The translations under genes were made by a program, and so were the position numbers. The notes beneath the pieces are model-generated. The model was given only the letters and a program-made list of their open reading frames with translations, was not told where the DNA came from and ran no database searches. A stretch of DNA of 64,000 bases from Neocallimastix sp. 'constans' (lineage: Eukaryota): the NCBI GenBank assembly GCA_050613775.1, contig JBODTK010000105.1, positions 124,001 through 188,000 of the forward strand, written 5' to 3'. Numbering within the stretch: position 1 is the first letter of the stretch; each line of letters starts with the position of its first letter. Shown here one piece after another: positions 18,921 to 57,757 of the stretch.

Positions 18921-19236
18921 TTACTTGTAACAACCAAACTCTGTATTCTCATCATCCATTACTTGTAACAACCAAACTCTGTATTCTCATCATCCATTAC
19001 TTGTAACAACCAAACTCTGTATTCTCATCATCCATTACTTGTAACAACCAAACTCTGTATTCTCATCATCCATTACTTGTAACAACCAAACTCTGTATTC
19101 TCATCATCCATTACTTGTAACAACCAAACTCTGTATTCTCATCATCCATTACTTGTAACAACCAAACTCTGTATTCTCATCATCCATTACTTGTAACAAC
19201 CAAACTCTGTATTCTCATCATCCATTGCCTGTAACA
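18921..19236 (+). repeat. Perfect 38-bp minisatellite x8 (TTACTTGTAACAACCAAACTCTGTATTCTCATCATCCA) plus partial degenerate copy
   Basis: Identical units start at 18921, 18959, 18997, 19035, 19073, 19111, 19149 and 19187, with no spacers between them. Confidence 0.95.
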
Positions 19237-21326: not shown

Positions 21327-22638
21327 TTAAAATTACTTTAATTTATTATATATAATTATATATCTATATATATTTATATATTTAATGAATTTAATAATAT
21401 TTAATGAATTTAATATTTAATGAAAATCATGGTAAGAAATCATTCACATGTGATTCTTCAAACCCTGCGGTCACATAATATAATTTTACAAAAATAAAAT
21501 AATAATAATAATAATAATTAATAATAATAATAAATAATAATAATTAATAATAATTAATAATAATAATAATAATAATTAATAATATAATAATTAATAATAA
21601 TAATAATAATAATTAATAATAATAATAATTAATAATAATAATAATAATTCTTAAAATTATATTGTTTTAATATAAAATATATAAATAATTTTATATAATT
21701 TGTTTATAGGATTTAATATTAATAGCACAATATAAATATTAAATATACAAATTACATATAATTAATAAGAAAAGTGTAAATTGAATTTAGTATATTTAAC
21801 TTATTTTTATTATAAATTAACATTTATTAAATGCTAATTTATAATAAAAATAAGATATATTAAGAAAATCAATAATTAAAATCTAATCTTATGTATATAG
21901 TATTATTTTTTTTAATACGTCCATATACAACTACCACTTTTATTATTATTATTATTGATTTAATTATTACTATTACTATTAATACTATTATTGCTTTAAT
22001 TATTACTATTACTATTAATACTATTATTGCTTTAATTATTATTATTACTATTACTATTACTATTACTATTAATACTATTATTGCTTTAATTATTATTATT
22101 ACTATTACTATTACTATTACTATTAATACTATTATTGCTTTAATTATTACTATTACTATTACTATTACTATTACTATTAAGTCTGTATTTAATTACAAAG
22201 ATTTTAAATTAAATACATCAAATTTTGAAAGACTGGTTTATTGAATTAAATACGTCATTTAATCGCACAAAGACAATGATGAATATACAGAAAAAAAAAA
22301 AAAAAAAAAAAAGAATTTATCTATGATAATAAGACCAGAAAAAACAAATAAAATGAGATAACGCTGTTCAAGCAATCAAAACTTTTTAAATAATTATAAA
22401 AAAAAAAAAAAAAAAACCTTTAAATTCTGGGGAAAAATTTTACCGCTTTTCTTTAAGGATTCTATTGTTCAAATGGGCTTGCCTTTTTTTTTATATATAT
22501 ATATAACTCGAATCCTCAAGTCTAATTTAAATTCTTGAAAAAAAAAATAAAAAATAAAAATAAAAAAAAAAAATTCCAAATAAATAAAAATATATATATA
22601 TATATATTTTTTTTTAATAAACCTGTTAATATATTTCA

Positions 22639-22678
<40 letters not shown>

Positions 22679-23399
22679 TCGGTGGTAAAAAGATTGGAAT
22701 TATTGCCCTACAAAAATTATATATAAAATATATATATATATATATGTAGGATAAACAATGTTAATGACAGTAGTCGATTATACGATAAATAACATTCTGA
22801 AGGATTCAAAACATCATTGATACAAAGAGGGGTATTAGTAATTAAAATAAAAAAAAAAACGACAATTCCCAAAAAAAAAAAAGTTAAGGTTAGTTACAAA
22901 AAAAAAAAAAAATGTCAATAAAAAGAAAGTACAACTGAAAGAAGCTAAATGATAATTGATGATCCTATGGATTGAAAAATACTTGTTTATGATTTGGGCA
23001 ATCATCAATGCTCTTTCTTAAGATACCTATCCATAGGATATTATTAATGTTGAAACTCAAAAAAAAAAATAATAATAATAATATAGGGTAAAATTCCAAT
23101 TTCTAGTGATGTCTTCTATACATCATTATTAAAATAATTTATGTTTTACAAGTGATGTAAATATTAATAAAACTATTATTGCTTTTTTTTTTTTTTTTTA
23201 AATGATTGTAATCCTTAATAGTGTTATTATATGAACATCAATAATATAATACATTATAACAGGTGAAAAGTATTACATCTCAATGAGATAAAGATTAATG
23301 TTTCGGGATTATTTCAATCAAATAGATTCCTATTGAATGAACAATCGTTTTTAAATTTAAATATAAGTGTTGATTCTTTATATGACCGATTATCATTGG

Positions 23400-23800
23400 G
23401 AAATAATGGTTAAAATGCAGTTGAAATAGGAAATATTGGAAAAAAAAAATAAAATAAAATGTCCATAGGGTTAATGTTTATCAGTAAAAGAAGGAAAGGT
23501 ACTTTGTTGAGCAATACTATTATAAAATAATATATGATATGGTGTTAATGGTCAATCTGAATTCGGTTAAAAAAGTAATATAATAGCTATAACAACAATA
23601 ACAATAACTACTACTACTACTACTACCACTACAATAAATCTTTCACCAACGTCTGCCTCTGTATAGATATACAATATAATGAATATTACTGATATATGGT
23701 CCAGAATATATCGACGAATCTCTAATTAATGAAAAAAATGGGATGATACAGATAGCCATCAATGGTATATTATAAATACCAAAATAGGAGATTACTTCAA

Positions 23801-23831
<31 letters not shown>

Positions 23832-24291
23832 GGGATGATACAGATAACCATCAATGGTATATTATAAATACCAAAATAGGAGGTTACTTCAAGTTAAAAA
23901 AAAAAAAAAAAAAAAATTTGAATTTGAACGCATAGTTGGTATAAATTTATCAGATGGTTTTTATGTCTCGGAAATTCTCTTAAATTCTATTTATTAGTAG
24001 TAAATCATCAAAAGTAAGTCACAAAAAGTAAAAAAAAAAAAAAAAAAAAATTTTATATGACTGTGATGATGATGAAATTACATGAAGATCAAATATAGAC
24101 AATATTAAATAAAAAAGATTATTACTTCTACCTACTACAACCATTACTACTACTAAGAATATTACAACTACTACTATAACTACAACTACAACTACTACCT
24201 CTAAACCAACACCTACTACTTAACTCCATCTTTTTTTTTCAAGAAATGGAAAATATGGTCCAAATGTAGAGGGTGCCATCTATTTAAACAG

Positions 24292-24326
<35 letters not shown>

Positions 24327-24610
24327 AGATTGTAGTAAATACGGATAGGGTGGAAGAATTTGAAGATTTATTATGGGTGGGTGGGTACAACATGTTCAAG
24401 ATGATGATGGAATGAAAGATGTCGCTAATGGTGGTGGTCGTTACGATGTAGTCTATGATTATCAACTTTAGGAATAAAAAAAAAAAAAAAAAAAAAAAAG
24501 GTTAAATCCAAAAGAAGATTGTAGTTCAATATTACCTCTTGTTGGAAATTCCAGAGATTATTATTGGAAGAGGACCGTCCACTAAACCAACGTAGAGTGG
24601 GATGCAAATA
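23400..24610 (+). pseudogene. Decayed modular CAZyme-type gene remnant with CBM18 (chitin-binding)-like repeats, Thr-rich linkers and possible dockerin (CBM10) fragments
   Basis: Fragments: KCP*G*C (about 23457), YGVNGQSEFG* (about 23538), a Thr-rich linker, KWDDTDSHQWYII (duplicated at about 23736 and 23828), TTTTTTSKPTPTT then NGKYGPNV (about 24245), CSKYG*GG (about 24331) and a frameshifted CS-QYY-L-GNSRDYY-GRG (about 24520). The sequence is interrupted by stops and poly-A tracts. It may extend upstream to about 22260. Confidence 0.45.
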
Positions 24611-24636
24611 AAAAAATTTAATTAATAAATTAAGAT

Positions 24637-25297: not shown

Positions 25298-26193
25298 ATT
25301 TTTAAAAAAAATATATATATATTTTTATTGATATAAATTTATTTAAAAATTAATCATTATAGAATCAATTTATAATCAATAATTTTTTATATTTTTATAT
25401 ACATTTTTTTTTTAAAAATGCAATACAATTAATGATTAAAATATTTTTTATTTTAAAAATTATGTTAACATTAATATAGGTTATACAATTCAGTTTAAAA
25501 AAAATAATTATTAAATGACTATTAAATGCTTTTATTTTAAATAAAATTAAACATAATATATATCATAATGATTTAAATAAAAAATAATAATAATAATAAA
25601 TAATAATTAACAATTATAATAATAATAATAATATAAAATAATAATTTTTTTTTTTATATATATATATAAGTATATATATAAGGAAATATAAATTTTTAAA
25701 TAAATTTTTTAATAAAATAGAAAAATCTATCCATAAAAAAAAATATTAAAGATAATTATTATTTTAATTTATTAATTTTTTTAATTAATAAATTAAAATA
25801 GGTTTATTTTATTTATTTTATTTATTTATTTTTATTTTGTATTTTTTATTATTATTTTTTTATTAAAAATAATATTAATAAAAAAGATAACATTAAAATT
25901 AAACATTACAACTTACAACAATCTAAATATTTTAAAGTCATATTTTATTTACACTAAAACATATAACTATAAGATATTATTAAATAAATATTATCAATCT
26001 ACAATAATTAAAGTTTCTATAAATATTTTATTCGTTTGACTAACATATTATTAGAAGCAGAAATTTTAATTTAATTTCCAAGAAGTATCACTATTAATAA
26101 TACATTAAATCGATTTTTTATGAATTTATTTACCTCAATCTTCAAATATACATATCAATTGAATCATTTATTTATTATTAAATTTTTTTAATC

Positions 26194-28365
26194 ATGCATC
26201 TAAAGTTTAATTTATATTCTGATGAAGAATTCGAAAAGGAAACAATACTTATTAAACATAGGAATGAATTAACAGATAATACAACATCATTTATAATTAA
26301 TCCTGAATTACCATGTAAACAATGTAAATCTATTATAGAATGTCCAGGACACACGGGAAGAATACCACTCTTTTACAGAATTGTTCATCCTCTATTCGTA
26401 GATACCCTGTGTAAAGAAATAACCCATATTTGCCCAATTTGTAAAAAATATAATCCTTCACTTTCCCCTAAAGATGTTTGTTGCGATAAACGTATTGTTT
26501 CTACCGCATTTAAACTTCATAAAGTCAAACCTAAGGAAACCGCTCCAAATAATTACAAATACAGAAATTACAACAGATTTGAAAAAAAGTCAACGAATAT
26601 TTCTGAATATTCTTTCACTTTTGGTAAGGAATTATTATCTATCCGTCAAATGTACGAAGTCGTTCGTTCTGCTGATTTTTCAGAAAACCCAGATCTTCAA
26701 AATCGTTTGCTTAATACATTTATCAAAAATATTCCAGTTTTACCAATTAATATGAGACCATCTATCCTGGATTCTTCTAACACTATCATTTATCATAATT
26801 TAACAAGATTATATCAAATTTTTCTAGATCTTAACCGCCAATGTCAAAATGGAGATATAGCTGATAGTAATGACTATATTGTACGTTCGTTTCTCTTGTA
26901 CAGGAAAATTTTAGGCATTCGTAGTAAAAACGATTCGTGGCAGGATGCTAATGCAATGTATATTAAACAAATGTTATCAGGAAAAAATGGTATCTTCCGA
27001 AGTATGTGTTTAGCTAAGCGTCAAAACTTTTGTCTTCGAAGTGTTATCGTACCAAATATTGATATCCCTTTAGATGTAGTATTAATTCCTAAAGAATTTA
27101 CTGATTCCTTAATTCCCTACGGGTATAAATCCAATGACTATATTATCATCAATAGACAGCCAACACTTCAAACTACCTCAATCTTAGCAGTTCATTCTCG
27201 TCCAAGCAACTGTCGAACCATTCAGATCAATCCACTCATTGCTAATATCTTTCAAGCTGATTTTGATGGTGACGAGATGAACATTTTTTGGCTACCGGGT
27301 GAAGAAGCTAAAGAAGAGATGGCCACAAAATTAAATATTGCAAATAACATTCGTTCCTATAAAAATGCTTCCCTTATGATAAAATTTATACAAGATACCC
27401 TAACGGGATTGTATAATATGACACGAAATAAAGAAATCATTGATACTGATATTGTAAAAAAAATGTGCGATAAATTGAGCATTTCCGATGGCGATTGGAA
27501 AAAATTTTGTAAATACTACAAATCGCGTATGAATAGTACGGATATCCCGTATGCTCACTTGTTATCTTTATTACTTCCTAGAACGCTTACTTTACATGAT
27601 CAGGAAGGTAAATTGCTGATAGATAAAGGAATATTACTAGGCGTTATCAGTGATGAAAATCAAACCCTCTTACTTAATGCTATTTCAAACTACGGTAATG
27701 AATTTTATTTAAAATTTATGTGGGATGTCCAACGTATGGTGCATGTGTATAATCTTCATCATGTTATTACTATTTCTATTGCTGATTGTATGGCCAGTGA
27801 TAAATTAAAAGAAGCAGGTATGCCCATAATGGACAGTATCCTAGGAAAAATGGATCCCATACCCGTCCTAAATCTGGACTCATTGATCGAAAATCAAAAT
27901 AAATTTGAAAACATTGATGAATTTAAACATCAAATTTTTCGCAAATATACTGAACTGACAGAATTAGTGGAATCCAATGTTGATAATAATTTAACGAATA
28001 TCATTAAAAGCGGATCAAAAGGAAATATGGATAACATGATTCAAATGTTGATGTCTGTTGGAGTTCAAGCTGTTCTACCCATTTGTTATATTAGAAATTC
28101 CTATTCCGAAGGATTGACAGCAAAAGAATTATTTATTCATTCAAAATCTGGCCGGGCAGGTATTATTTCTACTTCTCTTAATACATCATCTACCGGTTAT
28201 TTACAAAGAGAACTTGTGAAAAGTATGGAAGATTTAGTCACCGATGAACAAGGAATGGTTCATAACAGCAACAATGAACCCATAGGTTATTACCCATTTA
28301 GTACAAATAAGCCAGACATTGATGATGCATTTTTAGAACATGCATTTAATATGTCTTGTCTTTAA
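26194..28365 (+). CDS. Divergent, streamlined multisubunit RNA polymerase largest-subunit homologue (Rpb1/RpoA'-like N-terminal portion), intronless, 723 aa
   Basis: Collinear Rpb1 motifs: Zn clamp CKQC..CPGHTG and CPIC; IPVLP..RPS; LSGKNGIFR..LAKRQNFCLRSVI; NRQPTL; QADFDGDEMN (27253-27282); QDTL; SGSKG; NSYSEGL..ELFIHS.SGRAGII.T..TSSTGYLQRELVKSMEDL (bridge helix). The stop follows about 45 aa later. Confidence 0.93.
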   Translation: MHLKFNLYSDEEFEKETILIKHRNELTDNTTSFIINPELPCKQCKSIIECPGHTGRIPLFYRIVHPLFVDTLCKEITHICPICKKYNPSLSPKDVCCDKRIVSTAFKLHKVKPKETAPNNYKYRNYNRFEKKSTNISEYSFTFGKELLSIRQMYEVVRSADFSENPDLQNRLLNTFIKNIPVLPINMRPSILDSSNTIIYHNLTRLYQIFLDLNRQCQNGDIADSNDYIVRSFLLYRKILGIRSKNDSWQDANAMYIKQMLSGKNGIFRSMCLAKRQNFCLRSVIVPNIDIPLDVVLIPKEFTDSLIPYGYKSNDYIIINRQPTLQTTSILAVHSRPSNCRTIQINPLIANIFQADFDGDEMNIFWLPGEEAKEEMATKLNIANNIRSYKNASLMIKFIQDTLTGLYNMTRNKEIIDTDIVKKMCDKLSISDGDWKKFCKYYKSRMNSTDIPYAHLLSLLLPRTLTLHDQEGKLLIDKGILLGVISDENQTLLLNAISNYGNEFYLKFMWDVQRMVHVYNLHHVITISIADCMASDKLKEAGMPIMDSILGKMDPIPVLNLDSLIENQNKFENIDEFKHQIFRKYTELTELVESNVDNNLTNIIKSGSKGNMDNMIQMLMSVGVQAVLPICYIRNSYSEGLTAKELFIHSKSGRAGIISTSLNTSSTGYLQRELVKSMEDLVTDEQGMVHNSNNEPIGYYPFSTNKPDIDDAFLEHAFNMSCL

Positions 28366-28535
28366 CTCTAATATAATTCCTAGAGATCATCAATTAAGAT
28401 ATTATATATAACTAACATAATACGTATTAAATATAGGATAAAATAAAATATATTTCCTTTTTTTTTTTTTTTTTTTTTTTTTTTGTATTAAAAATAATTT
28501 TTAAAATATAAATAAAATAAAAAATAAAAAAAAAA

Positions 28536-28783: not shown

Positions 28784-29882
28784 GGGAGAGTTGCATTTCG
28801 CCAAGTGGCGTATTATCAAAATGTTGCATTTCCCAAGTTGCATTTCGACAAATGGCTTATTGATATAAGTAAATGAATGAATAAATAAATAAAAATTCAA
28901 AATAATTTTTTTAAATAAATAAAAATTCAAAATAATTTTTTTAAACTTGTTTTTATTATATTTTATAATTAATTACAGATATTTTTTAAAATAAAATAAT
29001 TATTAATAATATTTAATTATAAAAATAAATTTAATTATAAAGATATATTTTAATATTTTGTAAAAAAATAATATTATAGCAATACTTTAATTATAAAAAT
29101 ATATTTTTAAAATAATAATATTTTATCATAAAAATATATTATAATGTTCTTAAGCTAACCTAATCTAATAAAGATTAAAAATACTTTAATAATTATTGTA
29201 TTTATTCATTTATTCTCTTTTTAAAATAATTTTTACTATTAAAAAAATTATTATTATATATTTTAATATTTCGTAAAATAGTAATAAAATAATAATTTAT
29301 AATATTTAATTATAAAGATATATTTTAATATTTTGTAAAATAGTAATAAAATAATTATTTAAAATATTTAATTATAAAAATAAATTTAATTATAAAGATA
29401 TATTTTAATATTTTGTAAAAAAATAATATTATAGCAATACTTTAATTATAAAAATATTATAAGAAAAACTTTTTACATTTTTCTTAAGTAGGTAAATATT
29501 ATTTTTATTAATTCATTTATATATATATTTGTAAATAATAATAATATTATTTATAATTTAATCGTCATTATTATTATTAATGACAATCCTTTTATAATTA
29601 TAGCAATAGTGTTTATATTATTATTTTTTTTATTAATTATATTACTATATTGTTTATTTTATTATTATTTTTTTTTTTATTTATTATTTATCAATTTATT
29701 ATTTATTTAAACAGATATTTGTAAAGCTATTTATATATGAAAAAAATTTTTTTAATATTTAAATATTTACTTCATAATTATAAATACATCAATATTAAAA
29801 ATATTTAATTTTATTTATTTATTTATTTTATTTAATAATTCTCAATTTGGCGAAATGCAACTTGGCGAAATGCCCCACACCC
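28784..29882 (+). mobile_element. Non-autonomous Mutator-like element (MITE), about 1.1 kb
   Basis: Perfect 9-bp TSD CTTTTTAAC (28775-28783, 29883-29891). Termini are GGG...CCC with repeated TTGCATTTCGCCAA subterminal motifs inverted at both ends. The interior is AT-rich and non-coding. Confidence 0.85.
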
Positions 29883-31984: not shown

Positions 31985-34900
31985 TTAGTTATTATTGTTA
32001 AATTCTTTTAAGAGTTTAGGGCAATTTAAGTTTTCTTCGGGTTCCCAAGATGCTTCAGATAAAGGATAGCCTTTCCATTTAATAAGATATTGGGTTTTGC
32101 CATAATGTTTTCTTTTATCAAGAATTTTTTCAACTTCGTATTCTTCTTCATTGTCAATAATTATCGGTGGTGGTGGTTCTTTCTTTCGTCCAAAGTGATC
32201 TTCATAAAATGGTTCAAGTTCAGAAACATGTATTACAGGATGGATTCTGATTTCTTTTGGTAAGTCTAACTTATATGAAACGGGAGAAATTTTCTTAATG
32301 ATTTTATATGGACCAAGTTTTCTAGGTTTAAGTTTTTTATTTCCATTATGAATTATAAGTGAACTATTAATCCACACTTTATCACCAGGTTTAAAATTTG
32401 GAGCTTCAATACGATGTTTGTTAGCGAATTCTTCTTGCTTTTTTCTTGCTTGTTGTAAATTTCCATTAAGTGTTTTAAATAATTCTGAAAAATCTTTTGT
32501 AAATTCATCAGCTCTAGGAACATCTGTACTGTTTGGAATTGATGGTGAATATCTTGGATTATATCCATAGTTTGCATAAACAGGTGAGTGCTTAATTGAT
32601 TCTTGAATTGAATTATTATAACTGAATTCTGCTAGGAATAAAAAATTATACCAATCAGAACCTTTAAAGTTTGAATAACATCTTAAGTATTGTTCAATAA
32701 CGGAGTTCACCCTCTCCGTCAAACCGTTAGTTTGGTGATGGGATGGAGAAGAGAACTTCAACTTAATGTCGAGGGCATCGCAAACAGCAGTCCAAAATTT
32801 AGAGGTAAATTGGGTTCCTCTATCGGATAGAATTTCATTTGGTAAGCCGTGGAGTCGAAAGACGGTTTTCAAAAAAGCAGAAGCAGTGTCAGGGGCGGAA
32901 GGAACGTTTTCAAAAGGAATAAAGTGGCACATTTTAGAGAAGCGGTCGACAATGACAAAGATACAAGTAAAACCAGAAGATTCAGGGAGATCGGTAATAA
33001 AATCCATAGCAATAGAGATCCAAGGGCGATTAGGAATTTCAAGCGGTTGTAAGTATCCATAAGGATTGTGTCTTGAGTCCTTAGAACGGCAGCAAGTTTC
33101 GCAGGAGCGAATATAGTCTTTAGCATCAGAGTTAAGCGAGGGCCACCAAAAGTCGCGATTTAAAAGATTAATTGTTTTTCGAATTCCGAAGTGACCAGCG
33201 GAGGGAGAGTCATGGCAGATCTTAAAAGCGTGTGAGCGGCAGTTAGGCGGAATATAAAGTTTGTTGTCAAAGAGAAGGTAACCGTTACTAAGTGAGAATT
33301 TATCGATTTTAGGATGTGGGATTGGGAGCTTGTTATTTCCAAGGTAGTCACAAACGTTATGATAAAATGAATCGTTTTTACATTCGGAAAGGATTTCTTC
33401 AGTGAAAGGTACAGCGGAAGTTGGGAAAGCAGCAAAGTTTTCAGGACGGAGCACTGAGAAGGGGATTTCATTAGAATTTTGTTCAGAAGTAGCATAATCA
33501 GGTCTTCTTGAGAGCGCATCGGGTTTTCCATTGATTGAGCCAGAGCGATAGACAATTTTGAAGTTAAACTCGGATAAGAATAGAGACCAACGAATAAGCC
33601 TTTGTGTCATCTTTTCAGGTTTTTTCTGATAGAGAAGGTTGCGATGATCAGAATAAATTGTAAACGGTGTAGGTGTTCCTTTCAGAAGATGTCGCCAGTT
33701 TTCCAATGCAGAGATGATTGCTAAGAGCTCCTTATCGTAAATCGGGTAGTTTCTTTCTGGTGAAGTAAGAGATCTTGAATAAAAGGCAATGGGATGAATT
33801 TTATTATCTTTTGAAGAAGTTTGGGAGAGAACAGCACCTATAGCAAAATTACTGCTATCGGTTTCGACCATGAATGGGAGATTTCGGTCAGGATAAGCGA
33901 GAACGGGAGCAGAAGTAAATTTGGATTTGATTGTATTAAAAGATTCTTCAGCTTCTTCGGACCAGAGAAATTCGGAGTCTTTCCTTAAGAGAGCATTGAG
34001 GGGATGAGCTAGTTTTGCGAAATTGGGTATGAAGCGTCTATAGTAATTGGCTAAACCTAGAAACGATTGAATATCTTTAACACATGTTGGAGTAGGCCAT
34101 TCGAGTATAGAAGAGATCTTTTTTGGGTCCATAAATATACCATTGGAGGAGATTCTATGACCAAGGAAATCGATAAATGGAACGCAGAATTCGCATTTTT
34201 CGAGCTTTGCGTATAATCCTGCTTTACGGAGTCTAGTGAGAATTTCAGCGAGATGTATCCAATGAGAATCCAAATCAGGAGAAAAGATAATTATATCATC
34301 AATGTAGCTGAAAGCGAATTTTCCAAGACAGTCTTCAAGAACGTCATTTATGAAATGTTGGAATACTGCTGGTGCATTTTTCAAGCCGAAAGGCATCACG
34401 CGGTATTCGTAGTGGCCATAAAACAGTTTTGCATCGGGTTTTAGTTTTATCTCACAATCATATTGACGATGAGGTGGTAGTTTGTTGGCAGATTTTTCAT
34501 CGAAGACATCAATAAATTGCAAAAGCTTTTCAGGAAGATTGTTCGTTTCAGGTTGATTAATTGATTCTAGGGTTTCATCATCAAGTTGGGGTTCTTTTTC
34601 TGTAACGTGAGCAGTGAAAGTCATAGGAATAACCAGGCAATTATTAGTGCAATAACTTGATTTAAAGCAAAGTTTCTTTTCAGAGAAATTTATCATTGGA
34701 TTATGGGTACAGAGCCATTCAGAGCCAAGTATGCAGCAGTAAGAGGGTAAATCGATGATGTAGAATTCAGCTAAGCATTTGTGATTATCATAAGTGAGGG
34801 AGAGTGGCATGGTTTTGCCTAATATAGTTTGATTTCCACCTATACCGGAGACTTGTGGGACAACATTTTGTTTTTCGAAGGGAATATTATTTTCTTTTGC

Positions 34901-35844
34901 GAAGTAGATATCCATAAGATTTAATTGTGATCCGGAGTCAATTAAAATTTTGGTTTTAACAGAAGCGTTTGAGGTACTTATATTGAATTCAAAGGTTGCA
35001 GTTTTAACATTGGGATTATCAGAGAGTCTTGGTCTTGGTTTGGTTGTTTCTGGATTTGTTACGTAAGTAGTATTACTGCTTGTACTGTTATTATTGTTTC
35101 TTTTTCTGTTTTTGATGGGGCAATTATCAAGTTGGTGGTCAGTAGATCCACAATAGAGGCAGAGGTTTTCCTTTCTTCTTCTTTCTTTCTCTTCTTTTGA
35201 AAGGGGTCCATGGGTTTTATTAGGTTTGGATTGAAAAGGTTTTTTACCAGCGTTTCTTTTAAAATTGTTTCTAGTATTACTATTATTGTTGTTTTGTCGG
35301 TTGGTTAAGTTATTAAAGTTTCGATGGTTTGATATGCGGCTATCGATTCTGGAAGCAATTGTTTGCATTGCGAATAATGAACGGGGTCCTGGAAACATTT
35401 CGAGTATTCTGGTAGCTATTTGGTCTTGTAATCCATCCAAGAAAGCATCCATCTTGGCTTCTTCGTTCCAAGATGAATCATCAGCATATCGGTTGAATTC
35501 CATGATGTAATGTTGAATATCACCGATTCTTTTTTGCTTTATTGTTCTTAACCTATGGTTTGCCACGAAAGTTGCGTCATTATTCCCAAAAACCGATTTC
35601 ATTCGTTCGATGAATTCTTCGTAATTACCTAGGCATGGATCCATGTTTTCAATTAACGTTGCTGCCCAGTTCATAGCGGTTCCATATAGTCTTGAAATAA
35701 TGTATACCACTTTTGATTCATCATCAACGAATCTATCTGGATAGATCATAAAAAGAAGTTCAATTTTAGCGAGGAATCCTTTAAAATACCTTCTATCGCC
35801 GGCGAATCCATCCTTGAGTGTTGCATTACTATTGTTTACTTCTT

Positions 35845-35848
<4 letters not shown>
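31985..35848 (-). CDS. Gypsy-1 Gag-Pol polyprotein (Gag-CCHC-protease-RT(partial)-RNase H-integrase-chromodomain)
   Basis: Motifs [34 protein letters not shown] and SDRG..F integrase, GPY, and a C-terminal chromodomain [19 protein letters not shown]. The likely start is MEEVNN at 35848, since the upstream ORF part is poly-A. There is an in-frame deletion of the RT N-terminus. Confidence 0.92.
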
Positions 35849-35904
<56 letters not shown>

Positions 35905-36140
35905 TATAATTATTAATTTTGATTGAATAATAAATATACAATATAATTAATTATTAGAAGAAGTAAATATTTAATTTCAATATAAATAATTTTAATTTCA
36001 AGGATGGCTATATGGATTATTGAAAATATTAATAATTTTAATATATAGTAAAATTCAAGGGTTCCGATTGAATTTATAAATTCATGAATGAATTTTGGTA
36101 GAAAAGTTTATAGTCTTGGTAAGTGGTTTCAAAAATAGTA

Positions 36141-36374
36141 GAAAATGGGATTCCTTAACGGGGTTCCAAAAAGAGTAATAGAGAATGGGATTACTTAACG
36201 GGGTTCCAAAAAGAGTAGTAGAGAATGGGATTCCTTAACGGGGTTCCAAAAAAGAATAGTAGTAAATGGGATTCCTTAACGGTGTTCCAAAAATAGTAGT
36301 AGAAAATGGGATTCCTTAACGGGGTTCCAAAAATAGTAGTAGAAAATGGGATTCCTTAACGGGGTTCCAGAAAG
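36141..36374. repeat. About 40-bp tandem repeat x6 in the gypsy-1 5' UTR (core AATGGGATTCCTTAACGGGGTTCCA)
   Basis: Six visible copies with a conserved core and variable A/G-rich linkers. Confidence 0.9.
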
Positions 36375-36409
36375 AGTAAAAGTGCAAAGGTATTGTGCTT
36401 AGTTTAGTG

Positions 36410-36419
36410 GTGTTTTTAT
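36410..36419 (-). promoter_or_regulatory. Gypsy-1 self-priming PBS (ATAAAAACAC), complementary to LTR positions 36611-36602
   Basis: There is no TGG tRNA-type PBS. A perfect complement lies in the LTR about 35 nt downstream of a TATAAATA box (36652-36645, minus strand). Confidence 0.7.
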
Positions 36420-37034
36420 TGTAACGAATATTGGAATATCCGTGTTTTAAAGAGTGTAACACAATAGGTAAGCACTTTTTGATTAATAAGTAATTTGGTT
36501 TTTTAAAATATAGTTTTATTAATTAAGAAATTTAAAAATATTAATTATAAAGATTAATTATTGTAATATTTCGAATTACTTATTAATTAATTCAATAATT
36601 AATAAAAACACGAAGAAAAATATTTTCATTCGTGAAGTTCGCACTATTTATACTTTTAACGGAAAAACAGTTTTAACATGTAAAAATAATTTTAAAGAAA
36701 TATTTAGAAACATGTTTGTAATAATTAATAATGTAAAGTTTCTAGAATATAGATTTTAATTGATGAAAATGAATCTTATCAAAAAAGAATAAAATAATTT
36801 ATATAATAAGAATTTCTAAATTCATTTCGGTTAAATTACAAACCGAAAGAATCTTTAACTTTCTATAATTTTATACAGAAAGAATATTCAAGAAAATATT
36901 ATTAATAATTAATAAAATAATTAATAAAATAATTATTTATGCAAAATGGGTTGAGGTGTGAGTCGAACCCATGAAGTATTGGTCATGGTCAATGTAACTA
37001 ACCATTGAACCAAGGTTCTAATTTTACTAACTGA
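36420..37034 (-). repeat. Gypsy-1 5' LTR (major part; remainder at 45106-45118)
   Basis: Direct repeat of 31030-31644, split by the gypsy-2 insertion at CTGA. Confidence 0.95.
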
Positions 37035-37530
37035 TGATAAGAATGTACTAAATAATGCATTCTTAATTAAATCTACGATTTATTTCTAATACATTATGTG
37101 TACATTATTATTTTTGTACTTTAATAAATTTTTAAATCCAAAGATCAAAAATTAAATCAAAAATTATATTAAACTTTATATTTTTATATTAAATCTTATA
37201 TTAATAGTAATATTTTTATATATTTAAAACTTATATTAGCAATATTAATAATAAATCTTATTTTTTTTATATTAATAATGAAAATTTATATTAATAATAT
37301 TTTTATATATTGATAATTAAAAATTTATATATTATATTTTAACTTTTTATTATAAAATTTTATATCGAAATGTTTTATTTTATATTGAAAAATATTTTAT
37401 TTTATTAAAAACCTTTATATTAGAATAGTATTTTTATTTTTATTTGAATATTTTAACAGATTGTAATAAAAATTATAGCCAATTAAATAAATTCTTATTA
37501 GTAATATTTTAGATATTTTTAAATAAATAA

Positions 37531-37610
<80 letters not shown>

Positions 37611-37911
37611 TTTTATTAATATTATAAATGTATTTTATTTATATTGTTATAATTAAATTTTATATAATTAATTATAAAAATCAATTTAAATTTAATAGTT
37701 TTTAAAAAAAAAAAAAATAAATAAAATGTAATTTAGTGGCAAGAACAACTTTTATGCCTTGAAAAAAAGTATAAATAGTTGTAAATTTTGCTACTAATTT
37801 TTAAATATCATCAAATAAAATCAAATAAATTTATAAATAAAAATAATAAATAAATAAATAAAATTTGTGTTTCCTTACTTTATTTTTATTTAATTCTCTA
37901 AAACCTTAACA
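37035..37911 (+). repeat. Gypsy-2 5' LTR
   Basis: Repeat of 44226-45101, with an internal poly-A of about 75 nt and a TATAAATA at about 37770. Confidence 0.95.
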
Positions 37912-37917
37912 TTTATA

Positions 37918-37937
37918 TGGTGGAGATATCGGGGAAT
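37918..37937 (+). promoter_or_regulatory. Gypsy-2 PBS, complementary to the 3' end of a tRNA-Ala
   Basis: TGGTGGAGATATCGGGGAAT resembles the reverse complement of eukaryotic tRNA-Ala 3' ends (..CCCCGGCATCTCCACCA). It lies 6 nt from the LTR. Confidence 0.7.
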
Positions 37938-38934
37938 TAAATAGAAATAATAGTAAATAACATAGATTTTTTTTTAATTTTTTTTTTTATTTTATATTGA
38001 TAAACAAGTAAGTCGTTAATCCTTTGATTAACCCATGGCGCTTGTTTGATATATATATATAAAAAAAATTTTTTTTAAATAAGTAAAATTAAGATTCTAA
38101 AAAAACAAATTTTGTAAAATTATAACAAGGAGCGGATAGAGCTCATACACAGTGTATTCTCAGATAGCAACAAATTAACTCTATTCATAGTAGGTTATTG
38201 AATAGTAGTTAATTTGGAGATTAATTGGAAAGTAGACGAAGGTATTTGGTTACCGACCCGGTAATAATAGTTCAACCTTCAACGTTTCAACACACGAAGG
38301 TGCGGGTACTTTCCAAGCACTGGCGAATAAGGAGCTTACGTCACCGAAGGCGTAAGATTGTTTTTTTTATATAATTTTTTTTACTTTTCTTTGTGCTAGT
38401 TATAAGGCACTTTATTATATAAAGTATCAGACTTTGGCTAACTTCGCCATTTAAATTTTTTTTATTTTTTTTTATTACTGGTACTTTATTTGTTATATAA
38501 TTCCTGTAATAGAATCTTAATTTACTTTGAAAATATTGTGTTTTTAGTTAATTTTTATTAGTTAATAAAAATATTATTGAATACTTTTAAAATTTTTTTA
38601 TTCCGTACATAGATTATCGGATTAAGTTTATCCTACATAGTAATTGGGCTAGTGGGCTCTGAACTGCTATATTTTATATTGAATATAGTAATCGTGGCAC
38701 ACGCGTGGCATGACACCATTAGGTAAGCTGCACGTCAGACAGTGTGTACTATCAGATTGTACGACAATAAAGATTATTTTTTTGTATTTAATAATTATAA
38801 TTAATTAATAATTTTATTAGCTATAACAATACAATATTTATCGTTTAAAAAGAAAAATTTTTGAAAGGTGAAAATAATAAATAAAACTTTGCTTCTAAAT
38901 TTATTACTACAAATATACTAAATTACAAAATTCA

Positions 38935-39130
38935 AGTGGTCGATAAAGATTTCGAGCTTGAAAAATATTCTATTAAGTTGTCGATAAAGATTTCGAACTT
39001 AAAATTATTCTATTAAGTTGTCGATAAAGATTTCGAACTTAAAATTATTCTTAAAAAAGTAGTCGAAAAGAACCTCGTGCTTTATAATTTCTACTAAGTT
39101 GTCGATAAGGATTTCGAGCTTATACTTACT
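38935..39130 (+). repeat. About 40-bp tandem repeat x5 in the gypsy-2 leader (AAGTTGTCGATAAAGATTTCGAACTT...)
   Basis: Five diverged copies, each an imperfect palindrome AAGT..TCGA/TCGA.CTT. Confidence 0.8.
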
Positions 39131-39297
39131 AAAGAAAGCAAATAAAATTATTATTTTCAAAAATTACTAAGATATATTGTTTTAAAATTTGATTCGATAT
39201 TAAATTACTTGTTAAATTATATTTTTAAAGTTGGACTTTCCAAATTTATTCTTATTTAATCACCTCATTAATATACAACAAGAAATATTTAAACAAA

Positions 39298-40209
39298 ATG
39301 TCCAAGGAAACAACTTTGAGCTTTAAAGAATTAAAAAAAGAATTAAGAGATATTGTGAAACTTAGCAAGGACAATTTAGATATTAAGTCCTGGGCTACTG
39401 AATTAAAACTTTGGATCAAGATACAAGGTATTACAGATCCAGAAACAATATTTAATGCTTGTTTACTTACCAGCTCTGGTGAAGTACAACGCGTTATTGA
39501 AGATTTGGGAGAAGATAGTGATGATGAAAGTGATGATTCATCAGATGAAGAAGAAGATGATGATGAAGAAGAAAATGTTGATGATGATATTAAATTTCCT
39601 TCCCTTGAAAAAATTATTTCAAGTCTTGAAAATTTTTACGGTATTAAAGAAGACCAAAATTTACTTCTTAAAGAACTTCGTGCAATGCGAATTAAAAGAA
39701 ACGAAAAGATTAAAGACTTTAATGTAAGATATAGAACTTTGTACACTAAACTTGATAAAAAGAGAAGAAAGCGCATTGGTGTACTAGATTATATTGATTC
39801 TATTCAAAATAATTATGAAGCCTGGAAGAAATTATCCCTTAAAGATGATATAAGTATGGATAAAGCTTTCAAAATTGCCGAGAAAGTAGATAGACTTTCT
39901 GTAAGGAACAATAATATTAATACCTATAATGTTAATAATTCCCAACATAATCAAAATAATCAAAACAGTACTACTTCAAGACTTTATCCTAAAAGAAGAA
40001 ACGAAACTTTCCAAACAAATCAAACAAATAATAAACCGAAACCTCAAGATATTATAGAAGAATCAACCCAGAAAATGAGAAATTTATCCGTTAAAACTTG
40101 CTTCTTCTGTAAGGAAGAAGGTCATTACTCATACTATTGCCCTCAATTAAATAAGATTATGGAAAAAAATAAAAAAGAAATATATTCCAAAAAGTCTTTA
40201 AACTTCTAA
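39298..40209 (+). CDS. gag: Gypsy-2 Gag
   Basis: 303-aa ORF with an acidic tract and a C-terminal CFFCKEEGHYSYYC zinc knuckle. Confidence 0.9.
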   Translation: MSKETTLSFKELKKELRDIVKLSKDNLDIKSWATELKLWIKIQGITDPETIFNACLLTSSGEVQRVIEDLGEDSDDESDDSSDEEEDDDEEENVDDDIKFPSLEKIISSLENFYGIKEDQNLLLKELRAMRIKRNEKIKDFNVRYRTLYTKLDKKRRKRIGVLDYIDSIQNNYEAWKKLSLKDDISMDKAFKIAEKVDRLSVRNNNINTYNVNNSQHNQNNQNSTTSRLYPKRRNETFQTNQTNNKPKPQDIIEESTQKMRNLSVKTCFFCKEEGHYSYYCPQLNKIMEKNKKEIYSKKSLNF

Positions 40210-40249
40210 ATGGGAGCAGAAGCACTCCCAATGACAAAACAATAGCTTC
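40197..40249 (+). promoter_or_regulatory. -1 programmed ribosomal frameshift signal (T TTA AAC + H-type pseudoknot)
   Basis: The slippery heptamer 40197-40203 is in the gag frame. After a 7-nt spacer come stem 1 TGGGAG/CTCCCA and stem 2 GAAGC/GCTTC. The -1 frame is open from 40203 into pol. Confidence 0.85.
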
Positions 40250-40391
40250 ATTAAATAATTTACAAAATAATACTTTTACCAAGAATACCCCAATTGATAA
40301 TAATTCCTTTAATAAAGAATCTGAAGAATCTGATTTTAGTGACACAACTGAAAGTGAGGATGATATCATTATAAATGCTATAAAAAGAAAA

Positions 40392-43300
40392 ATGAATGAT
40401 AATAACAGCGAAAAGGAAGAAAATAATTCCAAGAAAGTACATAAAAGTTTAAAAGATAATCCACGTCCTTTCGCAACTCCTGCTTTAAGAAAGAAGAAAG
40501 AAAATGAGCTACATAATAAACCAAATAAAGTTTATAAAAATCAAATACTTCCTTCAATTTTAACTCAACCAAATATTAACAAAGAAAAACAAAAAGAAAA
40601 GGAATTAAGAAATATAACAAGAGTAAGAGAAAGTAAAGAAGAAAACAACAATTATTCATCAAAAGGAAAGAAAAAAGTTGAATCTGAAGATATACTTGTA
40701 ATCGATAAGGAAATAGAAGATATAGAAATGAATAAAGATAATCAACAAAATAAAACTAATACTTTGGAAAAATTAATTTCAACAAAAACTAAAGAAACTA
40801 ATAATGAAAATACTCAGTTAGTAAAAAGGAATATCAAAATGATGAATAATAAAGAACCTTACAATATTATGGATGATTTAAATAATCTTAAATCCAGTAT
40901 TACGATAGGTCAACTCTTGAATGCATGTCCGAAAATTCGTTCACAATTAACTCAAGGTTTAAAGTTAGAAAAATCTAAAATAATTGGAACTGTAGACAAT
41001 GTAATAGCACGAACTTTATTAGTGAATAACTATGATCATAGCTACATAAGTAAAAGTAATGAGGTAGCCGAAGAAGACTTAGCAATGGTTGATGCAAGTG
41101 TTGACGGAGTACTAGGAAAACTTTTAATTGATTCTTGTAGTAACCTAAGCATCGTTACTAAGCAGTATTTTGATAAATTACCTGGTGAATATGAAACAGT
41201 TGGAAAAAGTCGTGGAAGAATCCAACTAGCAACACAAGATGAAGAATACTCGGAAGGAATTATTGTTCAATTACCAGTAAAAATTAATAATTATGAATTT
41301 AATGCGGACTTTAGAATTATTGAGAAAGAAGACTCATTTTATGATATGTTAATAAACTTTAAAACTCAAATCGATCATTGTTTATTTATTCATCCGACCT
41401 TAAACAGTTTATGTAAACTTTTGTCAGAAAGTGAATACGAAGAAATAGCTAAAATAAATAATCAATATTATGATGAAGAAAGTATAATTTGCACTATTAG
41501 AAAAGTTAAAGAAACGAATAATGAAAAGGAAATTATAAAGGAATTAACTCCAATGGAATTTATTGAGAGTGATGAATTTTTAAGTACCTTAAATAAAGAT
41601 TATAAAGAACAAATTATTAAAATTCTCAAAGAAATGATTGACATAGTTGCCACTTCAACAGAAGAACTAACTCCTTCTAAACTTTCACCACATAAGATCC
41701 GTTTGAAAGCAAATGCAAAGCCAGTAAAATTAAGAAGTTATAGGTTAACTAAATTAAAATCAGATATCTTAAAAGAAGAACTTACAAAGCTTATTAAGAA
41801 AGGATTGATAGAACCATCCTGTTCAGAATGGTCATCTCCAGTAGTACTCATTCTAAAACACAATGGAAAGTGGCGCTTGTGTATTGACTACCGAAAAGTC
41901 AATGATATGACAGAAAAAGATTCTTATTCAGTTCCATATATAGATGAAATTTTTGATAGTCTCGGAGGATCTAAAATATTTACAACTCTTGATTTATTTT
42001 CTGGTTTTCACCAAATCTTAATGGATGAAGAAAGCGTTGAAGTAACCACTTTCACTACTAAGTTTGGAAATTATCAATTTAAGGTTATGCCTTTTGGACT
42101 TACTGGAGCTCCCTCAACCTTCCAAAGAGAAATGAATAAAATTTTATTCCCTTTTATTGGTGAATTTGTTTATGTATTTATTGATGATGTTTTGATCTAT
42201 TCAAAAAGTATCGAAGAACATTTAATTCATATTAAACAAGTATTAGAAGTATTTAAAGAAAACAAGTTAAAAATTAATATTGAAAAGTGCCATTTTCTTC
42301 AAACTGAAGTTGATGTATTAGGTCACAAACTTACTACTAAAGGATTAAGTCCCATGGAAAGTAAAATAACAGCTATTAAGAAGTGGGAAGCCCCTTCATC
42401 AATTCATGAATTAAGATCATTTCTAGGAGCAATAGGGTATTATCGTGACTTTATCCCTAAATATGCTCAAATTACCTCACCTTTATGTAAATTATTGAAA
42501 AAGAATACTAAATATGAATGGAATAAAGAACAACAAGAAAGCTTTGAACTCCTAAAAGAAAAATTAATCAATGCACCTATTCTAAAATTTCCGTCATTTG
42601 ACAAACCTTTTATCATTAGAACTGATGCTTCGTATAATGGAATTGGTGGAGTTCTTTTACAAAAAGAAGAAGAAACCGGTAAGGAGCATCCAATACACTT
42701 TATAAGTAGAAGTTTGAAGAAAACTGAAAAGAATTATGGTATCACAGATTTGGAAGGAACAGCTTTATTTTACTGTATGACTAAATTTAAATCTTATATT
42801 GAAGGAAATCCATTACCTACAACTATTTACACAGATCATAAACCATTAGTTGGTTTATTTAAGAATAAAGAACCTTTGAATGCAAGGCAAACAAGATGGT
42901 GTCTAACCGCTAGTATGCTTGGAATTAATATAAAATATGAATCAGGCAAAAAGAATGTGTTAGCTGATGCTCTTTCAAGAATGAAAAGTAAGGAAGAGAG
43001 AAAGATATTATTAACAAAAATTACTAATGGAAATAATGAAGAATTATTATCTAAGGTTATAAAGGAATTTATTAATGAAAAGTTTACTGTTATTGATGGT
43101 GAAGATTACTTTATCGACAATGGAAATTATAGAAAATTAATAACGGACGAAAATGAAAGGTTTAAATTAATTTTAGAAGCTCATAATATTGGCCACGAAG
43201 GATATTACAAAACATATCAAAGACTTAAGAAAAACTTTTATTGGAATCATATGATTAAAGATATCAAAAGAATTGTTAGTAATTGTGAAAAATGCCAATT

Positions 43301-44207
43301 AAATCGTCCTCAACCATATCCAGAACCAACCGAAAACCATCCAACTAAAGTGGAGGGTCCCTTTGTGCATTTAGGATTAGATATTATAGGACCGTTACCA
43401 AAAACAAGAAATAATAATCAATATATTATAGTAACTGTTGATTACTTTACCAAATGGGTTGAAGCCGAACCCACTGAAAACATAACTTCCTCTGATATAA
43501 TTAAATTTTTAATAAACGTTTTTGCAAGACATGGTGTACCTCAAGTTATTACTACTGATAATGGAGTCCAATTCACTTCTGATATGACTAAAATCTTTCT
43601 TGATCTTTATGATGTATATGTTAAATTTGTAGCTACTTACCACCCTGAATCAAATGGCCTTACTGAAAATCGAAATAAAGAAATTGGAAAATTACTCCGT
43701 TTATTAGGAAGGAAAAATCAAGATTGGGATGAAGTTTTACCTTCTGCTTTATGGGCACTTCGAACTACCAAAAATACAGCTACTGGACATTCTAGTTTTG
43801 AATTAGTATATGGAAGAGAAGACCAACAGCCTTATGATATAGCCATAAGAACAATTGAAAATGCAGGTAAATCATATGATGAAATCTTAATGGAAAAATT
43901 TGTTCGTCATTATCAATGGACTAGAGAAGCATGCGAAAATGTGAAGAATGCTAACAAGTATTGGGCAACAAGACGAGAAGAACAAATAAGTATGAAAAAA
44001 GGAAAAGAATTAAAGGCTGGTGATCTTGTTCTTGTTAGAAACTTTAGCCGCACTAAGCTAGAACCATATTACAATGGACCATTTAAAATTTTAAAAATTC
44101 AATTCAACACGGCAACCCTAATCGATCAGAAGACTGGAAAGCAACTCGATAGGAATGTTCACTTTAAAAATTTAGTAAAGTTTAACTCCGCTTACAGAGA
44201 AGCTTGA
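40392..44207 (+). CDS. pol: Gypsy-2 Pol (protease-RT-RNase H-integrase); probably expressed as Gag-Pol by -1 frameshift, frame open from 40203
   Basis: Motifs LIDSCS, SEWSSPVV..WRLCIDYR, LDLFSGFHQI, FIDD, IRTDAS, HNIGH..C..C, TDNG.QF and GPF. Confidence 0.95.
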   Translation: MNDNNSEKEENNSKKVHKSLKDNPRPFATPALRKKKENELHNKPNKVYKNQILPSILTQPNINKEKQKEKELRNITRVRESKEENNNYSSKGKKKVESEDILVIDKEIEDIEMNKDNQQNKTNTLEKLISTKTKETNNENTQLVKRNIKMMNNKEPYNIMDDLNNLKSSITIGQLLNACPKIRSQLTQGLKLEKSKIIGTVDNVIARTLLVNNYDHSYISKSNEVAEEDLAMVDASVDGVLGKLLIDSCSNLSIVTKQYFDKLPGEYETVGKSRGRIQLATQDEEYSEGIIVQLPVKINNYEFNADFRIIEKEDSFYDMLINFKTQIDHCLFIHPTLNSLCKLLSESEYEEIAKINNQYYDEESIICTIRKVKETNNEKEIIKELTPMEFIESDEFLSTLNKDYKEQIIKILKEMIDIVATSTEELTPSKLSPHKIRLKANAKPVKLRSYRLTKLKSDILKEELTKLIKKGLIEPSCSEWSSPVVLILKHNGKWRLCIDYRKVNDMTEKDSYSVPYIDEIFDSLGGSKIFTTLDLFSGFHQILMDEESVEVTTFTTKFGNYQFKVMPFGLTGAPSTFQREMNKILFPFIGEFVYVFIDDVLIYSKSIEEHLIHIKQVLEVFKENKLKINIEKCHFLQTEVDVLGHKLTTKGLSPMESKITAIKKWEAPSSIHELRSFLGAIGYYRDFIPKYAQITSPLCKLLKKNTKYEWNKEQQESFELLKEKLINAPILKFPSFDKPFIIRTDASYNGIGGVLLQKEEETGKEHPIHFISRSLKKTEKNYGITDLEGTALFYCMTKFKSYIEGNPLPTTIYTDHKPLVGLFKNKEPLNARQTRWCLTASMLGINIKYESGKKNVLADALSRMKSKEERKILLTKITNGNNEELLSKVIKEFINEKFTVIDGEDYFIDNGNYRKLITDENERFKLILEAHNIGHEGYYKTYQRLKKNFYWNHMIKDIKRIVSNCEKCQLNRPQPYPEPTENHPTKVEGPFVHLGLDIIGPLPKTRNNNQYIIVTVDYFTKWVEAEPTENITSSDIIKFLINVFARHGVPQVITTDNGVQFTSDMTKIFLDLYDVYVKFVATYHPESNGLTENRNKEIGKLLRLLGRKNQDWDEVLPSALWALRTTKNTATGHSSFELVYGREDQQPYDIAIRTIENAGKSYDEILMEKFVRHYQWTREACENVKNANKYWATRREEQISMKKGKELKAGDLVLVRNFSRTKLEPYYNGPFKILKIQFNTATLIDQKTGKQLDRNVHFKNLVKFNSAYREA

Positions 44208-44225
44208 GTCTTCGTCGGGGCATCT

Positions 44226-44721: not shown

Positions 44722-44801
<80 letters not shown>

Positions 44802-45101: not shown

Positions 45102-45174
45102 CTGAAGATTTCGTTACATAAATAATAAAAAATAATAACAAACAAAAGAAAAGTAAACAAAAAAAAAAAAAAAA

Positions 45175-57710: not shown

Positions 57711-57711
57711 C

Positions 57712-57757
<46 letters not shown>

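What the first reader, a model, noticed from the sequence alone, without database searches (positions are those of the whole stretch)
26194..28365. Orphan, minimal 'split' RNA polymerase largest subunit: candidate extra (non-Pol I/II/III) or virus-derived RNA polymerase in an anaerobic fungus
Seen: an intact, intronless 723-codon ORF isolated in non-coding DNA. It retains both clamp Zn sites, switch 2, NRQP, the catalytic DFDGD, the funnel and the bridge helix, then stops. No downstream exon or second half is visible. Established: nuclear Pol I/II/III largest subunits are about 1400-1900 aa and include the trigger loop and jaw. The end point here coincides with the archaeal RpoA'/RpoA'' split, and split or minimal RNAPs also occur in some large DNA viruses and yeast linear plasmids. 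The motifs look much more diverged than any fungal RPA1/RPB1/RPC1. Inference: this is not a degraded paralog, because the catalytic residues and reading frame are preserved in a region where unselected DNA decays to A/T. It is more likely one subunit of an undescribed multi-gene polymerase whose Rpb2-like and A''-like partners lie elsewhere. It could be a domesticated viral/plasmid enzyme or a lineage-specific fourth polymerase analogous to plant Pol IV/V, conceivably linked to transposon control.
Basis: partly seen in the sequence, partly recalled or inferred. Interest (0 to 1): 0.9.

Follow-up and report, generated by a model that had tools for sequence, protein, structure and literature searches.

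The report
Stranded half of a viral polymerase
This intact gene encodes the front half of an RNA polymerase subunit from a giant-virus-related element reported in gut fungi in 2020; it stands alone in this window and would likely work only with partner subunits made by other copies of the element, so it is probably not a new fungal polymerase.

Summary
The ORF is real: 723 codons, Rpb1 domains 1-4 and the start of domain 5, no trigger loop. It belongs to a gut-fungal family (26 hits at 49-100% identity); 21 of 23 aligned members end at the same motif. Four named homologues lie on contigs whose species and exact length match contigs where Gong et al. 2020 drew RP1n, the N-terminal RNA polymerase half of endogenous 'fundsalphavirus' elements. 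Most of those maps also show RP1c, RPB2, DNA polymerase and D5. A tree places it among split viral-type polymerases and rejects grouping with Pol II or archaea. So 'virus-derived, partners elsewhere' holds; 'undescribed' and 'fourth polymerase' do not. Added here: this copy is solo in the window, held unspliced in RNA libraries, and its lineage shows dN/dS 0.18-0.32. A sister subfamily has at least 12 near-identical intact records in one species. The protein lacks the dock domain and F-loop and has Q for N in the catalytic motif. Published searches list no capsid in these fungi, so a living, capsid-less element is possible but unproven. Whether this copy is used or is a passenger is open.

The parts
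26194..28365 (+). RP1n: N-terminal half of a split, virus-type RNA polymerase largest subunit, 723 aa
26314..26352 (+). Clamp zinc site 1 (C41, C44, C50, H53)
   Evidence: aligns with yeast Rpb1 61-112; positions
26431..26484 (+). Likely clamp zinc site 2 (C80, C83, C96/C97), shortened spacing
   Evidence: conserved in most full-length rows of A1; alignment; metal binding not shown
26980..27048 (+). Switch 2 region (GKNG...KRQN...RSVI)
   Evidence: aligns with yeast Rpb1 325-374; the name 'switch 2' is recalled
27112..27129 (+). Six-residue link in place of the ~60-residue dock domain
   Evidence: span 6 here against 60-64 in Pol II, Pol III and archaeal rows; yeast 375-436 unmatched; the name 'dock' for this range is recalled
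27151..27273 (+). Active site: NRQP (320-323) and QADFDGD (354-360)
   Evidence: Q in place of N in 66 proteins, all of the gut-fungal family; N in 309, G in 6, H in 1
28060..28104 (+). End of funnel with the F-loop segment missing (7 residues against 22-39 in other rows)
   Evidence: the name 'F-loop' is recalled
28141..28239 (+). Bridge-helix region, followed by a family-specific C-terminal tail and the stop
   Evidence: aligns with yeast Rpb1 799-864; same ending in 21 of 23 rows
25901..28439 (.). Span covered by collinear contigs of RNA libraries; likely the unspliced transcript
   Evidence: 3 of 4 runs laid, no joints; L001 matches 25886-28444 at 100%. Contigs show no strand, and DNA carry-over was not excluded.

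Best explanation
The gene encodes the N-terminal half (RP1n) of a split RNA polymerase largest subunit, most likely from the 'fundsalphavirus' elements of anaerobic gut fungi, and it stands alone in this window, where it would be catalytically useful only together with RP1c and RPB2 made by other copies of the element. RP1n carries the clamp, the Mg-binding DFDGD loop, the pore, the funnel and the bridge helix (shown by alignment). RP1c would supply the trigger loop and jaw, and the element's RPB2 the other half of the cleft (inferred from published gene maps and from a relative's contig). The enzyme would transcribe the element's own replication genes: DNA polymerase B, D5 primase-helicase, SNF2 helicase, UDG and methyltransferase (inferred). 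Without a dock domain it is predicted to start without the usual TFIIB contact. This copy was likely separated from its element by deletion or decay of its neighbours. The identity is about 0.92 likely; that this copy's product is in use, about 0.5.
For: Family: 26 hits at 49-100% identity, 11 named to gut fungi, then a fall to E 2e-44. 21 of 23 aligned members share the C-terminal ending. No longer relative exceeds 43% local identity among the 120 listed of 1,937. Link to print: P0008, P0019, P0025 (Piromyces finnis) and P0018 (Piromyces sp. E2) lie on contigs of 127,315, 168,386, 246,453 and 68,043 bp. These are the lengths of MCFH01000089.1, MCFH01000083.1, MCFH01000069.1 and KZ151082.1, which carry RP1n beside DNA polymerase in Gong's Fig. 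S2; the three P. finnis contigs also show RPB2, D5 and RP1c. All four are in the RPB1 tree. Tree: the gut-fungal clade (100/100) is sister to a group holding chytrid and Sphagnum proteins (97/89), inside a 100/99 group with IMG/VR viral proteins. AU tests reject grouping with Pol II (p 3e-80) and with archaea (p 4e-99). A relative's IMG/VR contig holds RP1n (780 aa) and a separate RP1c (373 aa, Rpb1_5 from position 70) beside DNA polymerase B, D5 and a capping enzyme. Multi-copy: 12 full-length accessions of the series named N. lanati among 15 listed of 75 cluster members; 13 full-length members differ by 1-21 of 719 residues. dN/dS is 0.32 and 0.18. 6 of 24 listed runs are on record as RNA (5 studies) and hold 0.90-1.00 of the words.
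Against: The contig link is by species and exact length, not by sequence, and covers 4 of 11 named homologues. No whole genome was held, so RP1c and RPB2 were not seen in this organism. A search with the distant RP1c found 14 proteins, none named to a gut fungus. The gut-fungal stem is long (1.84), several rows have odd composition, and the columns came from a profile built on the short clade, all of which can pull it toward other long branches. Pol I was not in the tree. dN/dS reflects the whole path between copies, not this locus. The F-loop loss and the N-to-Q change could mean lowered or altered activity. RNA libraries may hold DNA, and no silent control stretch was laid. One of four runs laid nothing.
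Confidence: 0.75

Rival explanations
1. Same viral identity, but this copy is a passenger: a recently stranded RP1n whose frame has not yet decayed and whose transcript does nothing.
For: Solo in 64 kb. Broken or shortened copies exist in the family: P0014 has lost the catalytic aspartates and L004 has a stop at codon 633. The dN/dS values need no selection at this locus.
Against: Seven full-length members of its own cluster differ by only 0-3 residues and are all intact. Faecal metatranscriptomes of two studies carry it with the same upstream DNA. The coding-like DNA 2-4 kb upstream is full of stops and poly-A runs while this frame is whole.
Confidence: 0.35
2. A domesticated host enzyme: solo RP1n, RP1c and RPB2 genes form a fourth nuclear polymerase with a host role, in the manner of plant Pol IV/V.
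For: Intact, solo, among host genes and retrotransposons, held in RNA libraries, and 18% diverged from the expanding subfamily.
Against: Family members are multi-copy, several per genome, and sit in viral gene clusters. Pol IV/V descend from Pol II (recalled), and that grouping is rejected here. No synteny across genera was shown.
Confidence: 0.1
3. A truncated or diverged copy of cellular RPB1/RPC1/RPA1, or an archaeal RpoA' gained from rumen methanogens.
For: The best sequence hits among solved structures are yeast Rpb1 (E 8e-37) and archaeal Rpo1N (E 4e-35). The end point resembles the archaeal split.
Against: AU tests reject both groupings. Pol III rows (P0420 checked) are separated by two branches of 100/98 and 100/99. 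The dock deletion is shared with the short viral-type clade and not with the cellular rows. Pol I was not tested.
Confidence: 0.03
4. A contaminant or misassembled viral read in the assembly.
For: Intronless, higher in GC than its flanks, and no long read was laid across its junctions.
Against: 20 of 24 listed runs (18 studies) hold at least 0.90 of its words. RNA contigs continue about 290 bases upstream with no other letters. GC by codon position (0.40/0.31/0.25) is like the neighbouring host ORFs. Homologues lie on contigs up to about 1 Mb.
Confidence: 0.03

Closest known systems
RP1n of endogenous fundsalphaviruses (Gong, Zhang and Han 2020, PMC7017919)
   Different: The paper found elements through DNA polymerase and called them fossils. 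This copy has no DNA polymerase or other element gene in 64 kb, is intact and is held in RNA libraries. In the parts I read, the paper does not discuss expression, selection or lost modules.
Split largest subunits of Pitho-like and related Nucleocytoviricota
   Same: The top Foldseek match of the low-confidence model is a 905-aa subunit of Pithovirus LCPAC104; the tree groups it with stand-alone 850-1000-aa proteins and IMG/VR giant-virus contigs.
   Different: Those keep a dock of 63-135 residues and an F-loop of 37-39 residues. No capsid gene is reported for the gut-fungal elements.
Archaeal RpoA'/RpoA'' (Rpo1N/Rpo1C)
   Same: Split just after the bridge helix.
   Different: Grouping rejected; archaeal halves are adjacent genes and keep the dock and F-loop. 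The shared split point is likely convergent.
RNA polymerase of yeast cytoplasmic linear plasmids (VLEs, YKP6)
   Same: Capsid-less elements in fungi with an RNA polymerase of Nucleocytoviricota origin (10.1101/2025.10.13.682091, passages): a working model for a capsid-less lifestyle.
   Different: VLE DNA polymerases are related to those of polintons and adenoviruses; fundsalphavirus DNA polymerase groups with Pithovirus. No VLE sequence was compared here.
Plant Pol IV/Pol V (recalled)
   Same: Extra polymerase subunit genes in a eukaryotic nucleus.
   Different: They derive from Pol II and are unsplit; this family is rejected as part of Pol II and is tied to a multi-copy element.

Membership tests
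Fundsalphavirus RP1n | Homologous to the RP1n genes in the published elements | tested here: met
   4 of 11 named homologues match published RP1n-bearing contigs by species and exact length; indirect, not a sequence comparison
Fundsalphavirus RP1n | Largest subunit split into separate N and C genes | tested here: met
   Conserved end in 21 of 23 rows; no close fused form; separate RP1c on a relative's contig
Fundsalphavirus RP1n | Groups with Nucleocytoviricota, not cellular polymerases | tested here: met
   long-branch caveat; Pol I not included
Fundsalphavirus element (this locus) | DNA polymerase B, D5, RPB2, RP1c and helicase next to it | tested here: not met
   No such ORF or tblastn hit in the window. 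The locus is a solo gene, not a whole element.
Fundsalphavirus element (this organism) | Pithovirus-related DNA polymerase elsewhere in the genome | not testable with these tools
   No genome held
Cellular Pol II / Pol III largest subunit | One chain with trigger loop, jaw and dock; inside the cellular clade | tested here: not met
Cellular Pol I largest subunit | Inside the RPA1 clade | not tested
   No Pol I row in the tree; Pol I scores lower than Pol II, archaeal and Pol III chains (E 4e-20)
Archaeal RpoA' | Inside the archaeal clade, with RpoA'' adjacent | tested here: not met
Mycodnaviridae | Major capsid protein and placement in that clade | not tested
   PMC13533422 (passages) calls earlier fungal EVEs distant from Mycodnaviridae and lists capsids only in other phyla
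Active RNA polymerase subunit | Assembles with RP1c and RPB2 and makes RNA | not testable with these tools
   Catalytic aspartates kept in 21 of 23 rows, 2 altered; partner sequences were not obtained

The most novel reading that the evidence does not exclude
Gut-fungal fundsalphaviruses are not fossils but a living, capsid-less family of giant-virus-derived mobile elements, still multiplying, that transcribe themselves with an unusually stripped multi-subunit polymerase: split, no dock, no F-loop, QADFDGD. This solo copy is kept and expressed to supply RP1n in trans, a first step of domestication.
Probability: 0.3. Interest if true: 0.72.

Novelty: new member of a known kind. Interest (0 to 1): 0.37.

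Why it matters
As a gene it is a further copy of a family reported in 2020, so the claim of a new fungal polymerase falls. What remains of value: the family has one paper in the library searched, which treats it as fossil, whereas these data show intact frames, purifying selection, recent copy expansion and RNA. If the elements are active and capsid-less, they are a route from giant virus to chromosomal mobile element in rumen fungi. Their polymerase would be a natural test of whether the dock, the F-loop and the asparagine before the catalytic loop can be spared in a eukaryote-type enzyme. It also matters for annotation, since these genes are filed as ordinary RNA polymerase subunits.

Tried and rejected
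No whole genome was held, and the record behind L015 was not held for genome search, so 31.5 of its 40.1 kb were read through flanks. No capsid family appeared among 14 ORFs scanned there, but the contig is likely a fragment. IMG/VR gave no close relative with the gut-fungal profile: 1 distant locus, and 9 distant loci with P0180. Metagenome contigs gave only 4 short loci of 1.9-2.6 kb, too short for gene context. A search with the distant RP1c did not reach a gut-fungal RP1c (14 hits); the search needs shared words, so this is no evidence of absence. The AlphaFold model of the lone subunit was poor (pLDDT 56, pTM 0.39), so its Foldseek ranks (TM at most 0.38 for the top 25) are only a lead. 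The region 22200-24620 looks by eye like a decayed gene with a chitin-binding-like piece, which would fit the ChtBD1 drawn beside RP1n in the published maps. Pfam gave no such hit in 17 translations, so it is not counted. No terminal repeats stood out from the AT-rich background. Run X1 laid nothing, and four added runs held next to no words; neither is counted. No complex was predicted, because no gut-fungal partner sequence was in hand. Earlier scan notes had nothing by sequence or place.

Full report
Observation. The ORF at 26194-28365 is real: 723 codons without a break, in DNA of about 10% GC. Pfam finds Rpb1 domains 2, 3 and 4, domain 1 weakly, and only positions 1-56 of 267 of domain 5. 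Against yeast Rpb1 it runs from the clamp zinc site to residue 864 and stops, so the trigger loop and jaw are absent. The rest of the window holds three LTR retrotransposons, an SZT2-like host gene (E 1e-5) and non-coding DNA. Of 233 tblastn hits from 1,943 viral and archaeal proteins, none falls outside this ORF. Those queries are only 25-30% identical to the family, so decayed partners could be missed, but no intact one is present.

A family, not an orphan. The protein search gave 26 proteins at 49-100% identity, 11 of them named to Neocallimastix, Piromyces, Anaeromyces or Orpinomyces, then a sharp drop (120 of 633 listed). In an alignment of 23, 21 end in the same C-terminal motif and two stop earlier, so the end is a family trait. 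Among longer proteins none is close (120 of 1,937 listed). The sister subfamily at 82% identity has 75 members. Of 15 listed, 12 full-length accessions belong to the series named N. lanati and 13 to a second Neocallimastix series, and 13 full-length members differ by 1-21 residues. Some of this may be haplotype redundancy, but so many variants point to recent multiplication.

What it is. Gong, Zhang and Han 2020 (PMC7017919; I read main-text parts 1-2 of 3 and supplement parts 1-4 of 7, plus term searches) describe endogenous 'fundsalphaviruses', related to Pithovirus by DNA polymerase, in five gut fungi. The shared genes are D5, a SNF2 helicase, a methyltransferase, RPB2, RPB5, and RP1n and RP1c as separate genes. 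Four of my named homologues lie on contigs whose species and exact length match contigs drawn there with RP1n (127,315; 168,386; 246,453; 68,043 bp), and all four are in the paper's RPB1 tree. The other seven named homologues do not match: three are from genomes the paper did not use, three have other lengths and one has none. The link is indirect, but four exact matches in the right species are unlikely by chance.

Tree. I aligned 131 proteins to a profile of the short clade, drew a quick tree of 130, and took 51 into IQ-TREE with LG+C20+F+G4, leaving out near-duplicates and several very long or partial rows. The gut-fungal clade (100/100, stem 1.84) is sister (97/89) to four proteins, including ones from the chytrid Gaertneriomyces and the moss Sphagnum. 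These sit among 16 short stand-alone RP1n proteins (93/97), inside a 100/99 group with IMG/VR viral proteins. Grouping with Pol II or with archaea is rejected (p 3e-80; p 4e-99). Long branches, composition and the profile-based alignment are caveats, and Pol I was not included. One member of the short clade lies on an IMG/VR contig with a separate 373-aa RP1c next to DNA polymerase B, plus D5, a capping enzyme, a FEN1-like nuclease and MutS. That shows the split directly in a relative. Two more RP1n/RP1c pairs share contig lengths (9,667 and 27,881 bp).

Anatomy. Two segments are missing. Yeast 375-436, which I recall as the dock, is 6 residues here, 3-20 in other short-clade rows and 60-64 in cellular rows. 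TFIIB contacts Pol II near the dock (PMC7111264, passages), so initiation is predicted to do without that contact. The segment before the bridge helix that I recall as the F-loop is 7 residues against 22-39, a loss seen only in the gut-fungal rows. The catalytic motif begins with Q in place of N in 66 proteins, all of this family, against N in 309. I recall that asparagine as a ribose contact, so selectivity may differ.

Selection and RNA. dN/dS is 0.32 against L002 (719 codons) and 0.18 against L004 (685 codons, near saturation, with one stop in L004). This covers the whole path between copies, not this locus alone. Twenty of 24 listed runs hold at least 0.90 of its words, and six of them, from five studies, are on record as RNA. 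Contigs of 3 of 4 runs laid cover 25901-28439 with no joints; two stop at 28439, just before a poly-T run, which is only a weak hint of a 3' end. Contigs about 9% different show other copies in the same libraries. DNA carry-over was not excluded.

How it likely works. Shown: an intact RP1n with catalytic residues, alone in the window. Inferred: it pairs with RP1c (trigger loop) and RPB2 from complete elements elsewhere in the genome, perhaps with host small subunits, since the paper's RPB5 tree has no gut-fungal entry, and the enzyme transcribes the element's replication genes. Not shown: that the partners exist in this organism, or that this copy is used. A passenger (0.35) and a domesticated host polymerase (0.1) remain as rivals.

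Capsid. The fungal labels in the paper's A32 and capsid trees include no gut fungus (all 48 occurrences of the search term seen; labels of other form were not checked). PMC13533422 (passages only) reports capsids in Chytridiomycota, Monoblepharidomycota and Blastocladiomycota after searching 2,543 genomes and does not mention gut fungi. Six of its ten supplementary files could not be read and may bear on this. A capsid-less lifestyle like that of yeast linear plasmids (10.1101/2025.10.13.682091, passages) is therefore possible but unproven.

Novelty. Eight searches of the library (listings and abstract starts) found only the 2020 paper on these elements in gut fungi. I saw nothing there on expression, selection, copy expansion or the lost modules; most subscription journals are not searched. 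PMC10881513 was seen only as a listing. Two earlier scan notes reach the same family for other fungi; they are not independent support. Verdict: a new member of a known kind, interest 0.37. The bolder reading, a living capsid-less element with a stripped polymerase, has probability about 0.3 and would merit 0.72.

Noticed in passing
window 53441-63960 (-): Two very long exon-like frames (1463 and 1902 aa) of an SZT2-like host gene; weak match to KICSTOR SZT2, no Pfam hit.
   Followed up: partly
window 31985-50814: Three LTR retrotransposons with long open frames: a chromodomain Ty3/gypsy (31985-35950, -), a Ty3/gypsy with gag and pol in overlapping frames (39229-44207, +) and a copia (45157-50814, +).
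   Followed up: partly
window 5185-8649 (-): 1154-aa host-like frame with hydrophobic segments near its end and no Pfam hit.
   Followed up: no
window 1-4000: GC of 38-44%, far above the rest of the window; the three + strand frames scanned have no Pfam hit.
   Followed up: no
window 22200-24620: Decayed coding-like DNA broken by poly-A runs, with Thr-rich linkers, a short tandem duplication and a piece that recalls a chitin-binding domain; no supporting Pfam hit.
   Followed up: partly
window 18925-19230: Tandem array of a roughly 39-bp unit, about eight copies, seen in the sequence.
   Followed up: no
window 28790-29880: A short GC-richer motif repeated near 28790-28850 and inverted near 29845-29875, possibly the ends of a small non-autonomous transposon; not among the 25 longest inverted repeats.
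   Followed up: partly
L015, L175, L176 (one 40-kb IMG/VR contig): Compact virus-like gene set with short RP1n, RP1c, DNA polymerase B, D5, capping enzyme, MutS-HNH and, by eye, a dUTPase and a small globin; no capsid family among 14 ORFs scanned.
   Followed up: partly
P0178 (Gaertneriomyces) and L175 6374-7246 (-): The C-terminal extension of this 1025-aa RP1n resembles by eye the separate 290-aa ORF of L175: a fusion or a merged gene model.
   Followed up: no
P0189, P0186: Short RP1n proteins in Sphagnum troendelagicum and Geranomyces michiganensis assemblies extend the host range of this clade.
   Followed up: partly
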